Assembly (NCBI RefSeq): GCF_009914755.1 | Contig: NC_060926.1 | Source: the human T2T-CHM13v2.0 reference genome, Homo sapiens | Length of the DNA: 64,000 nucleotides | Direction: 5' to 3' (one strand) | Shown: in pieces, positions 45,359-47,397 of the stretch | Numbering within the stretch: position 1 is the first letter of the stretch | Layout of the letters: every line of letters begins with the position of its first letter | Translations under genes and position numbers: made by a program | Notes under the pieces: model-generated | What the model saw: the letters and a program-made list of their open reading frames with translations, nothing else | Told to the model about the DNA's origin: nothing | The model's database searches: none

Positions 45359-46086
45359 AATGTGTGATACAAAGGATAGCTTCATGTAGTCTCCTATTTG
45401 AATAAGGGGATATCATAGAAGTTATAGATCCAGATAGGGTTATCATTTTTTAAAAAGCAAGACATCAGAATTGATCATTAATTTTTAAAATAACAGCTGC
45501 ATTTAAAGACATCTGGTCTTACACGTTGTTCATTGTAGATCAAGTAATCTACATAATGTGTTTTTAAAAATTAGATCTTATGGGCTTTAAAAGTGATCTG
45601 AAATTCCTTGTGGAACAGAGTTTCATCAAAGCCACTCCAAAAGGCCTATGTAAAAATAACCATTCTTGCTGCACTCCATGCAAATAATCAGGCCAAGTAT
45701 AAGACTAAAGTTTATTCATAATTAGCTTTTAGAAAAATGAGGACTGGAGAAAAAAATTTTGCTCCAAAGCTTATCATACATTTATCATTAAATCCTAGTC
45801 TCATTAATCATTTTTAAGCTTTTTGCCTACATTTTAGACTAACCCTGCTTATTCCTGTGAATCAAGTGGTAATCTTCTGCAGCTTGGGGAAAAAAAAAAA
45901 GGGATGGGTAACGTAAAAATGTGAATCAATATGCTAGTTCTGGGCAATTATCTTGCAAATTCTGCCTGGTAATGAAAGTGAGTAAGGTGCCCATAACCCG
46001 GAGGTTTCTTTGTTTGGGAAAATAAAACCAAGGAACTTCATAGACCCTCAGAGGGGAATTCTGTATCTTGGCAAGTAAAATTTCAG

Positions 46087-46272
46087 ATGGAAATTACCTA
46101 CCACACCACACTTGTGGGAACTGCTGTCCTCACTCTTCTATTTGCAATAGGGTTATCCATGGTATCACCTTCTAACTTAAATATTGGACAGAGAGTTTCC
46201 ATTGCTGTCATGTTTTGCTTAATTAGTATCTTTATGGTAGGGATAATATTTACTGACAAAAAGGAAGCATGA
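46087..46272 (+). CDS. Intact 61-aa ERV-derived ORF with two hydrophobic segments (hypothetical)
   Basis: True ATG (cagATGG); LVGTAVLTLLFAIGLSMV and VSIAVMFCLISIFMVGIIF, charged tail DKKEA; stop overlaps the next ATG. Confidence 0.4.
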   Translation: MEITYHTTLVGTAVLTLLFAIGLSMVSPSNLNIGQRVSIAVMFCLISIFMVGIIFTDKKEA

Positions 46273-46625
46273 AAGTTTTACTGTCACTGAGTCTGCTAGG
46301 ACTTTTTATTGGGTTTAGTGATGAAGTTTTAAATGAAACATGCTGCTTTTGGATTAACACCTCTAATAAAGTAGAGGAAAATCTACAGGTACTTAAAAAT
46401 CAAATAAAAATTATTAACAGGCTCAGAGAAAATGCTGGCTTCAGCCCCGGGTGGCTACAATCCCTCTTTAATGAATTCTGGTCTTTATGGAATTGGTTAA
46501 CCCCTTTATTAAGCCCTCTCTTACTTATATGTCTTGTATTGATATTTGGACCCTTTATACTCAATACTGTAACTCGAATTGTTTCTTCTTGCCTAGAAGC
46601 AATCAAATGCCAAATGGTGCTGTAA
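46269..46625 (+). CDS. Intact 118-aa truncated retroviral Env TM-like ORF with signal-peptide-like N-terminus
   Basis: MKVLLSLSLLGLFIGFS, then LNETCCFWINTS (gamma-type CX6CC end), helical heptad, W-rich segment, membrane anchor PLLSPLLLICLVLIFGPFIL, tail LEAIK. Confidence 0.6.
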   Translation: MKVLLSLSLLGLFIGFSDEVLNETCCFWINTSNKVEENLQVLKNQIKIINRLRENAGFSPGWLQSLFNEFWSLWNWLTPLLSPLLLICLVLIFGPFILNTVTRIVSSCLEAIKCQMVL

Positions 46626-46796
46626 ACTGAACCACACATGGACATGCCATTCTTCCAAGGACCCTTAGATCAACCCCAGGAGGAGCCCTAGCTGCTGTTC
46701 CCCATTCAACGCCCCTTTTTTGCAGGAAGTAGCCAGAAAGAGTCGTCGTCCCAAACCCCCTGACAGCAGTTACTGTGGCATCTTCACAGTGGGGGC

Positions 46797-47368
46797 TGTT
46801 GTAAGAGTTATTAAGAAATTATTTTAGGCAGATAGAGAGGACAAGGGGTCCTTGGGAAGTTTTCATTTTTTAAAGCATCTCCAGAAATGTTTTCTTGTGA
46901 AGTTCCGGCTCTTAGAGCCAGGCTGGCAACCTTTGATATGCAAATGCCAACCATTAGAAACTGGGTCTACCCAAACATGGAGATTCCCTCAGCCTTCTTG
47001 CCCTTTTCCCACATGTTCCCGGCAGCATGGCCCCCACCTATCCCCACGTGTGTAGAACATCATGGTGCATTGTATTTGCATATTAAAAGGCTAGGGTGGG
47101 AGGGCCAGCTTTTTTGCAAGCTACATGAATGACATGCCTAGTCAAACCAATCCCCTGAGCCCTATGCAAATCAGACATCGCCTCCTCCAGCCTCTGCATA
47201 TATACCTGGCTGGTGTCCACCGTACTTGGGGACCTCCTCTTTTGGCTTTGGAGCACCCCCTCCCCATCTCTGTATGGGGGAGCCTCTTCCTTCTGTCTTC
47301 TCTCTTTAATTTTTAAAACAAAATTTAAAATTTTTCTTTCTTGCCTATTAAACTCTCTGCTCCTTAAA
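46797..47368 (+). mobile_element. ERV1 3' LTR (LTR9-family-like), U3-R only
   Basis: Starts tgttgtaagagttattaagaaattattttaggcagatag after the PPT; TATA-like catatatac near 47197; ATTAAA at 47347-47352; ends in (AAAAC)n with no U5 or terminal CA. Confidence 0.85.
46931..47171. promoter_or_regulatory. Octamer / SOX-OCT motif cluster in LTR U3
   Basis: ctttgatATGCAAAT 46931-46945; cattgt plus ATTTGCAT 47068-47081; ATGCAAAT 47164-47171. Confidence 0.55.
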
Positions 47369-47397
47369 ACAAAACAAAACAAAACAAAATTAGATGA

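What the first reader, a model, noticed from the sequence alone, without database searches (positions are those of the whole stretch)
45566..47397. ERV fragment with hallmarks of an L1-retrotransposed (processed) retroviral RNA
Seen: the internal sequence starts abruptly after tttt/aaaaattagat (45566-45576), a canonical L1 endonuclease site. It runs through the PPT and U3-R and stops about 15 nt after ATTAAA (47347). It is followed by (AAAAC)4 and a second aaaattagat (47386-47395). There is no U5, terminal CA or 5' LTR. Known: this is the structure of HERV-W processed pseudogenes made by L1 ORF2p. Inference: an LTR9/HUERS-P3-like transcript was mobilised in trans by L1, which is less well documented for this family.
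Basis: partly seen in the sequence, partly recalled or inferred. Interest (0 to 1): 0.7.

Follow-up and report, generated by a model that had tools for sequence, protein, structure and literature searches.

The report
Retrovirus RNA copies pasted by LINE-1
This 1.8-kb piece of an old retrovirus-like element has the shape of a messenger RNA, likely pasted in by LINE-1, and about seventy more copies of its family end the same way, a habit that reviews credit to the HERV-W group alone.

Summary
Window 45583-47370 is an ERV1 env remnant plus a 3' LTR that stops at the polyadenylation site, followed by an (AAAAC)n tail. A 10-nt duplication at a TTTT/AAAAA site flanks it. No U5, primer site or second LTR lies in the window. 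Alone it is an ordinary 5'-truncated L1 retrocopy.

The family is the finding. An R-end motif is followed by an A-rich tail at 69 places and by U5 at 132. That is 34%, against 38 of 100 for a HERV-W control and 3 of 100 for an LTR12-type control. Full-length copies begin at one point about 29 nt after the TATA box. Nine carry precise splice junctions, and 9 of 15 have duplications above a mismatched-pair null.

A review calls HERV-W the sole HERV group mobilised this way (PMC5537654), so this LTR9/HUERS-P3-like group looks like a second. Eight completed paper searches found no report, but the key 2002 paper and Repbase/Dfam notes could not be read. Subfamily name, primate empty site and L1 as the enzyme were not tested directly.

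The parts
45562..45570 (+). TTTT/AAAAA, L1 endonuclease-type target motif
   Evidence: sequence; motif as given for HERV-W processed pseudogenes in PMC5537654
45567..45576 (+). 5' copy of the target-site duplication AAAATTAGAT (probably 11 nt from 45566 originally; inferred)
45577..45582 (+). six bases at the 5' junction that match no paralogue at this position
   Evidence: alignments to 5 unspliced paralogue stretches start at 45583-45584
45583..46796 (+). 3' end of the ERV internal region; keeps the family's last intron, so it came from an RNA not spliced there
   Evidence: 79-93% identical to 39 other scored loci; donor about 40 nt upstream of 45583 and acceptors at 46596/46599 defined in paralogues
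46257..46622 (+). env transmembrane-subunit remnant (open stretch of 122 aa)
   Evidence: Pfam PF00429, E 1.1e-13, residues 25-109 on profile 478-559 of 560
46785..46796 (+). polypurine-tract position, just before the LTR
   Evidence: sequence; same place in tailed paralogues
46797..47227 (+). U3 of the 3' LTR, with a TATA-like box at 47197-47207
   Evidence: 84% to solo LTR L020; start TGT shared with solo LTRs
47228..47370 (+). R region, from the G-run where full-length retrocopies begin to the polyadenylation site; ATTAAA at 47347-47352
   Evidence: R start mapped from paralogues; R end from tailed versus U5-bearing copies
47306..47334 (+). 29-nt AT-rich insertion private to this copy (ends approximate)
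   Evidence: gap in pairwise alignments to 3 of 3 paralogues tested
47371..47385 (+). A-rich tail, now an (AAAAC)n microsatellite
47386..47395 (+). 3' copy of the target-site duplication; also serves as the 5' duplication of the Alu
47398..47689 (+). old Alu at the same target site, closed by a degenerate third copy of the target word at 47686-47697
   Evidence: at most 80.7% identical to 39 full Alu hits in hand, against 90.9% for a young control Alu

Best explanation
This is the 3' 1.8 kb of a polyadenylated RNA of an LTR9/HUERS-P3-like endogenous retrovirus, likely reverse-transcribed and inserted by LINE-1 proteins at a TTTT/AAAAA site, and one of at least 69 family copies that end at the same site in an A-rich tail. 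Shown: the RNA-like anatomy of this copy; the shared 3' end; cap-site 5' ends, spliced junctions and duplications in paralogues; no gag or pol match in one full-length copy. Inferred: proviruses of this coding-poor group were transcribed in the germ line roughly 30-45 million years ago; their capped, often spliced RNAs were captured in trans by L1 ORF2p and primed on the poly(A) tail; synthesis for this copy stopped 1.8 kb in. The site was probably the 5' duplication of an older Alu. The copy has no promoter at its 5' end and is most likely inert. Copies with one leader type (AAGGAAATTC after the primer site) were copied almost only this way.
For: This copy. Among loci found with the internal sequence alone (40 scored), 26 of the 39 others had their 3' end examined: 19 tailed, 3 with U5, 4 unresolved. 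Genome-wide motif counts: 70 tail matches, one of which is really U5, against 132 U5 matches; reversed-pattern controls 0. 20 of 20 further tail matches fetched lack U5 (score 12-19 against 54-125 for controls). Primer-site set (32 hits): 10 of 11 copies with the AAGGAAATTC leader start at R and none keeps U3; 18 of 18 with other leaders and the same LTR keep U3; 3 with another LTR were not scored. Seven copies start at exactly +29 from the TATA-like box. Nine copies have junctions that join GT donors to AG acceptors seen in unspliced copies, with both AGs of a NAGNAG acceptor used. Duplications of 9-17 nt score above the 95th percentile of 210 mismatched pairs in 9 of 15 copies with both ends. 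Controls: 38 of 100 and 3 of 100 listed places tailed; Fisher p 0.61 and 5e-11.
Against: No primate empty site could be examined. L1 is inferred from hallmarks only. This copy has no splice junction and no R-U5 start, so its case rests on the 3' end and a 10-nt AT-rich duplication that the Alu shares. Six of 15 paired copies show no duplication above the null. The U3-R tree is star-like and the retrocopies are not one clade (9 label changes against 10.3 shuffled), which argues against a single master element. The leader association is inflated by relatedness. One provirus with that leader keeps both full LTRs (L102/L110). Control fractions are hand counts of the first 100 listed places, with patterns of different stringency, and all denominators include solo LTRs.
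Confidence: 0.92

Rival explanations
1. A normal provirus lost U5 and all upstream sequence by later deletions, and the A-rich tract and 10-mer come from the neighbouring Alu insertion.
For: The R end itself reads CTT/AAAA, and Alus did insert next to it in two paralogues (L025, L099). The 3' 10-mer doubles as the Alu's 5' duplication.
Against: In both of those paralogues U5 resumes after the Alu; here it does not. The same 10-mer marks the 5' junction 1.8 kb away. 69 other-flanked places end at the same bases.
Confidence: 0.03
2. The copy is a DNA-level duplication, or an L1 3' transduction, of an existing tailed copy elsewhere and not an independent retrocopy of ERV RNA.
For: Duplicated family members exist (two identical tail hits on contig 17; two identical loci on contig 24).
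Against: The closest paralogues differ by 7.6-9.7% at non-CpG sites. No flank is shared with a paralogue. The duplication hugs both junctions and there is one tail only.
Confidence: 0.03
3. The RNA was inserted by a route other than L1 target-primed reverse transcription, such as retroviral reverse transcriptase with repair-mediated capture.
For: The enzyme was not tested. The 6 unmatched bases and the 29-nt insertion in R are unexplained.
Against: A-rich duplications of 9-17 nt that begin with the tail, TT/AAAA sites, poly(A) ends and 5' truncation are the L1 signature listed in PMC5537654. Retroviral reverse transcription would restore U3 and U5 (established knowledge).
Confidence: 0.02

Closest known systems
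HERV-W (LTR17/HERV17) processed pseudogenes
   Same: U3-R 3' end, R-U5 5' start, poly(A), TT/AAAA site, 5-15-nt duplication, bias to one subgroup (PMC5537654; PMC5016936); some spliced copies (PMC6995185); similar tailed fraction here (34% against 38%); both use ATTAAA.
   Different: Different LTR and internal sequence; tRNA-Gly primer site; no gag or pol match in the one full-length copy scanned; up to three introns removed, with copies as short as about 0.9 kb.
HERV-K(HML-2) rec retrocopies ERVK-30 and ERVK-31
   Same: L1-type retrocopies of spliced ERV RNA outside HERV-W (PMC4351823).
   Different: Two isolated loci of a class II group, against at least 69 here.
HUERS-P3 / HUERS-P3b with LTR9-series LTRs (HUERSP supergroup)
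   Same: The element taken as the LTR9/HUERS-P3 copy in HLA-DPB2 (PMC8193847) shares the LTR start motif, 78-86% patches of U3 and 69-83% patches of internal sequence. HUERS-P3b is described as replication-defective (PMC3597737).
   Different: That element has a different R end and only patchy similarity, so it is another subfamily. HUERSP3 is listed with a Pro primer site (PMC4724089 supplement 2). No retrocopies are mentioned in the passages read.

Membership tests
L1-processed ERV pseudogene (HERV-W-type structure) | 3' LTR reduced to U3-R, no U5 | tested here: met
L1-processed ERV pseudogene (HERV-W-type structure) | poly(A) tail after the cleavage site | tested here: met
   decayed to (AAAAC)n; pure A tails at the same site in paralogues
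L1-processed ERV pseudogene (HERV-W-type structure) | TT/AAAA insertion motif and 5-15-nt target-site duplication | tested here: met
L1-processed ERV pseudogene (HERV-W-type structure) | 5' LTR reduced to R-U5 in full-length copies | tested here: inconclusive
   this copy is 5'-truncated; met in 13 of 17 copies with the same leader
L1-processed ERV pseudogene (HERV-W-type structure) | empty site with one target copy in an outgroup | not testable with these tools
   no other primate genome is held (header: no relatives)
HERV-W group | LTR17 and a Trp/Arg primer site | tested here: not met
   R end differs from the control motif; the family's primer site is complementary to tRNA-Gly. The LTR17 label and the Trp primer are recalled; Arg is from PMC6995185
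HUERS-P3 / LTR9 series | LTR and internal similarity to an element annotated LTR9/HUERS-P3 | tested here: met
   patches at 69-86% to L114. L114 was placed by recalled coordinates and recognised by two LTRs of about 660 nt and a 1-kb interruption, as in PMC8193847. By-eye motif matches to HUERSP3 supplement text
HUERS-P3 / LTR9 series | tRNA-Pro primer site (HUERSP3 in PMC4724089 supplement 2) | tested here: not met
   tRNA-Gly found; so filed as HUERS-P3-like, not as canonical HUERSP3
HUERS-P3 / LTR9 series | best match to a named Dfam/Repbase subfamily (LTR9, 9A1, 9B-D, MER61) | not testable with these tools
   no repeat library is offered

The most novel reading that the evidence does not exclude
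An LTR9/HUERS-P3-like group is an unreported second human ERV group that spread on the scale of HERV-W as L1-made copies of its own RNA (about 120 copies). One coding-poor leader lineage survives almost only as such copies, a retroviral RNA that behaved like a SINE, and its copies record the cap site and a four-exon splice pattern of an extinct transcript.
Probability: 0.55. Interest if true: 0.65.

Novelty: new member of a known kind. Interest (0 to 1): 0.5.

Why it matters
PMC5537654 states that HERV-W is the sole HERV group mobilised by L1 and that the determinants limiting this to W are unknown. A second group with the same tailed fraction, a sister LTR type at 16 of 100 and a low background of 3 of 100 turn a single case into a gradient. 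One can then ask which features (leader, splicing, ATTAAA signal, loss of coding capacity, germ-line timing) predict capture. In practice, many 'truncated LTR9' annotations would be promoterless RNA copies and not decayed proviruses, which affects LTR counts, LTR-LTR dating and read assignment. The copy in this window has no sign of function.

Tried and rejected
Single master element: rejected; the U3-R tree of 13 retrocopies, 18 solo LTRs and 1 proviral LTR is star-like and the label is not clustered (133 of 500 shuffles as low). Strict HERV-W exclusivity in absolute terms: the LTR12-type control also has tails (3 of 100 listed, 1318 matches in all), so the distinction is one of proportion. 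Naming the family from the RetroTector table: no row at guessed coordinates. gag or pol in a full-length copy: 44 plus-strand open stretches of 35 aa or more from 5.6 kb gave only the env TM match; short broken stretches can hide remnants. Weak Pfam matches below cut-off were taken as chance. Four 3' ends (L032, L035, L040, L045) were missed by the fetched stretches and left unresolved; 13 loci were not fetched. The order of Alu and ERV insertion could not be fixed from the three target copies (two changes either way); only the Alu's age favours Alu first. Pavlicek 2002 was not held.

Full report
1. The observation. The 10-mer AAAATTAGAT lies at 45567-45576 and 47386-47395. The 5' flank reads TTTT/AAAAA. 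Similarity to paralogues starts at 45583, after six unmatched bases. An open stretch at 46257-46622 matches the C-terminal 82 positions of the retroviral Env profile PF00429 (E 1.1e-13). The LTR starts at 46797, has ATTAAA at 47347-47352 and stops matching solo LTRs at 47370, where they run on for about 85 nt of U5 ending in ATCA. (AAAAC)4.8 follows. U5 from two solo LTRs, a whole LTR, a leader and upstream internal sequence found nothing else in the 64 kb apart from one 24-nt match at E 0.037.

2. The shared target site. The Alu at 47398-47689 is closed by AAAATTACATCA, a third and degenerate copy of the target word. The Alu is at most 80.7% identical to 39 full Alu hits in hand, against 90.9% for a young control. 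I infer that the Alu came first and the ERV RNA was inserted into its 5' duplication. The three copies alone do not fix the order.

3. The family's 3' ends. Of 30 loci fetched from the LTR search (40 scored), the 12 with internal sequence next to the LTR, this one included, all end in an A-rich tail at the same site; the 18 without it all have U5. That query held the tail and is biased, so I searched with internal sequence alone (40 loci). Of the 39 others, 26 were examined: 19 tailed, 3 with U5, 4 unresolved; 13 were not fetched. One tailed and one U5 locus carry a sister LTR type. Genome-wide, a 33-place R-end pattern followed by a tail matched 70 places, one of which is really U5 and two of which look like a duplicated pair; followed by U5 it matched 132. 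Twenty of 20 further tail matches, including the ten most doubtful CA-type ones, lack U5. The tail pattern catches 14 of 24 tailed copies in hand and the U5 pattern 13 of 20, which suggests roughly 120 tailed copies (inference).

4. Controls. The same kind of pattern gave 38 tailed of the first 100 listed places for a HERV-W-type LTR (180 matches), 3 of 100 for an LTR12-type LTR (1318 matches) and 16 of 100 for the sister LTR type (187 matches). These are my hand counts, and the family labels are recalled. The 69:132 ratio does not differ from the W control (Fisher p 0.61) and differs from the LTR12-type control (p 5e-11). Pattern stringency differs and solo LTRs are in every denominator.

5. 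The 5' ends. A primer-site pattern gave 32 hits; 30 were fetched and 2 were in hand. The site is complementary to the 3' end of tRNA-Gly genes. Eleven hits have the leader AAGGAAATTC: 10 begin at the start of R and one is joined to another LTR inside R. Eighteen have other leaders and the same LTR, and all keep U3; two of them are identical duplicates. Three carry another LTR and were not scored. Fisher p is 1.2e-7 for 10 of 10 against 0 of 17, inflated by kinship. A pattern for that leader gave 17 hits: 13 start at R, 1 is a provirus with both LTRs, 2 lack U3 for other reasons, and 1 has another LTR. Seven copies start at exactly +29 from the TATA-like box.

6. Splicing. Unspliced copies show donors (AGACTG/GTGAG, CTATCT/GTAAG, CACAG/GTATT) and acceptors (TTTTCAG/, TTTAAG/, CTAACAG/, CTAG/AAG/). 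Nine copies join them precisely: L030 lacks three introns, L053 two, and L017, L069, L073, L074, L098, L100 and L103 at least one. Five use the first AG of the NAGNAG acceptor and two the second. DNA deletion would not produce this. The window copy keeps the last intron, so it came from an RNA unspliced there.

7. Duplications in paralogues. Of 15 copies with both ends in hand, 9 score above the 95th percentile of 210 mismatched pairs, with matches of 17, 16, 15 and 13 nt among them; 6 do not, and two of the nine are A-rich or doubtful.

8. Origin and age. The U3-R tree is star-like and retrocopies are interleaved with solo LTRs, so several sources contributed. Non-CpG distances are about 11% among LTRs and 7.6-9.7% for internal sequence. 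With a recalled primate neutral rate this points to roughly 30-45 million years (inference). One full-length copy has about 6 kb between its R regions; 5.6 kb of it gave no gag or pol match in 44 open stretches, in line with a coding-poor element.

9. Mechanism. Shown: RNA-shaped copies with a fixed start, introns removed, a fixed 3' end, tails and A-rich duplications. Inferred: germ-line transcription of proviruses, capture by L1 ORF2p, target-primed reverse transcription from the tail, early termination for this copy. Speculative: an RNA with little coding capacity or poor packaging stayed free for L1.

10. What is known. PMC5537654 (passages) calls HERV-W the sole group so mobilised, lists the hallmarks and says the determinants are unknown. 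PMC5016936 (passages), PMC6995185 (passages), PMC5861771 (passages) and PMC11359688 (passages) discuss L1 copying only for W in what I read. PMC4351823 (passages) reports two HML-2 rec retrocopies. PMC4724089 (passages; supplement passages) did not separate processed pseudogenes from proviruses. PMC5753468, PMC3597737 and PMC8193847 (passages) gave the family names. PMC9148063 (passages) added nothing. Ten searches ran; two were mainly for names (54, 71), and none listed a report of LTR9/HUERS-P3 retrocopies. Pavlicek 2002 and Costas 2002 were seen only as reference entries. Subscription papers, Repbase/Dfam notes and preprint supplements were out of reach and may hold the observation. I recall an older report of spliced HERV-H genomic copies; no call supports that.

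11. Verdict. The single copy is ordinary. The family pattern is a new member of a known kind, probably unreported, that contradicts a published uniqueness claim and makes its open question testable by comparison. Interest 0.5.

Noticed in passing
window 47306-47334: The private 29-nt insertion in R resembles the reverse complement of the 5' target flank (45555-45573, 84% over 19 nt, pair I7) and also the tail junction. It may be a templated insertion made during integration, or chance in AT-rich DNA.
   Followed up: partly
G000:C1:206987250-206988800 (L102): A provirus with the retrocopied leader type carries an antisense solo LTR of HERV-W type (label recalled) inside U5 of its 5' LTR; its two LTRs differ by 14% over 424 nt of U3.
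   Followed up: partly
G000:C3:193494479-193494889 (L080): An LTR12-like stretch (label recalled) joins the family's R region right after an AG and upstream of U5 and the primer site; possibly a chimeric or spliced transcript copy.
   Followed up: no
listing, e.g. G000:C2:24589204-24589887 and C5:127260944-127261777: A sister LTR type has 16 of 100 listed R ends tailed, with two R-end pairs only 650-800 nt apart that look like short spliced retrocopies.
   Followed up: partly
listing: G000:C1:152758922, C1:154939883, C1:194420792: Three LTR12-type R ends run straight into A tails; with 1318 matches this suggests some tens of such copies.
   Followed up: no
L115-L124, L005, L016, L048: Many tails that start after CCAC have turned into (CA)n microsatellites, others into (AAAAC)n, (AAC)n or (AAAT)n: one cleavage site seeding different repeats.
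   Followed up: no
window 45000-45360: An unmasked old LTR fragment of MaLR type (label recalled) lies just upstream; it matches stretches in four fetched loci at 75-86%.
   Followed up: no
window 45583-47370: The copy sits in sense in an intron of predicted lncRNA LOC105374690 (annotation in the finding), so its ATTAAA could act as an alternative end; no transcript data were examined.
   Followed up: no
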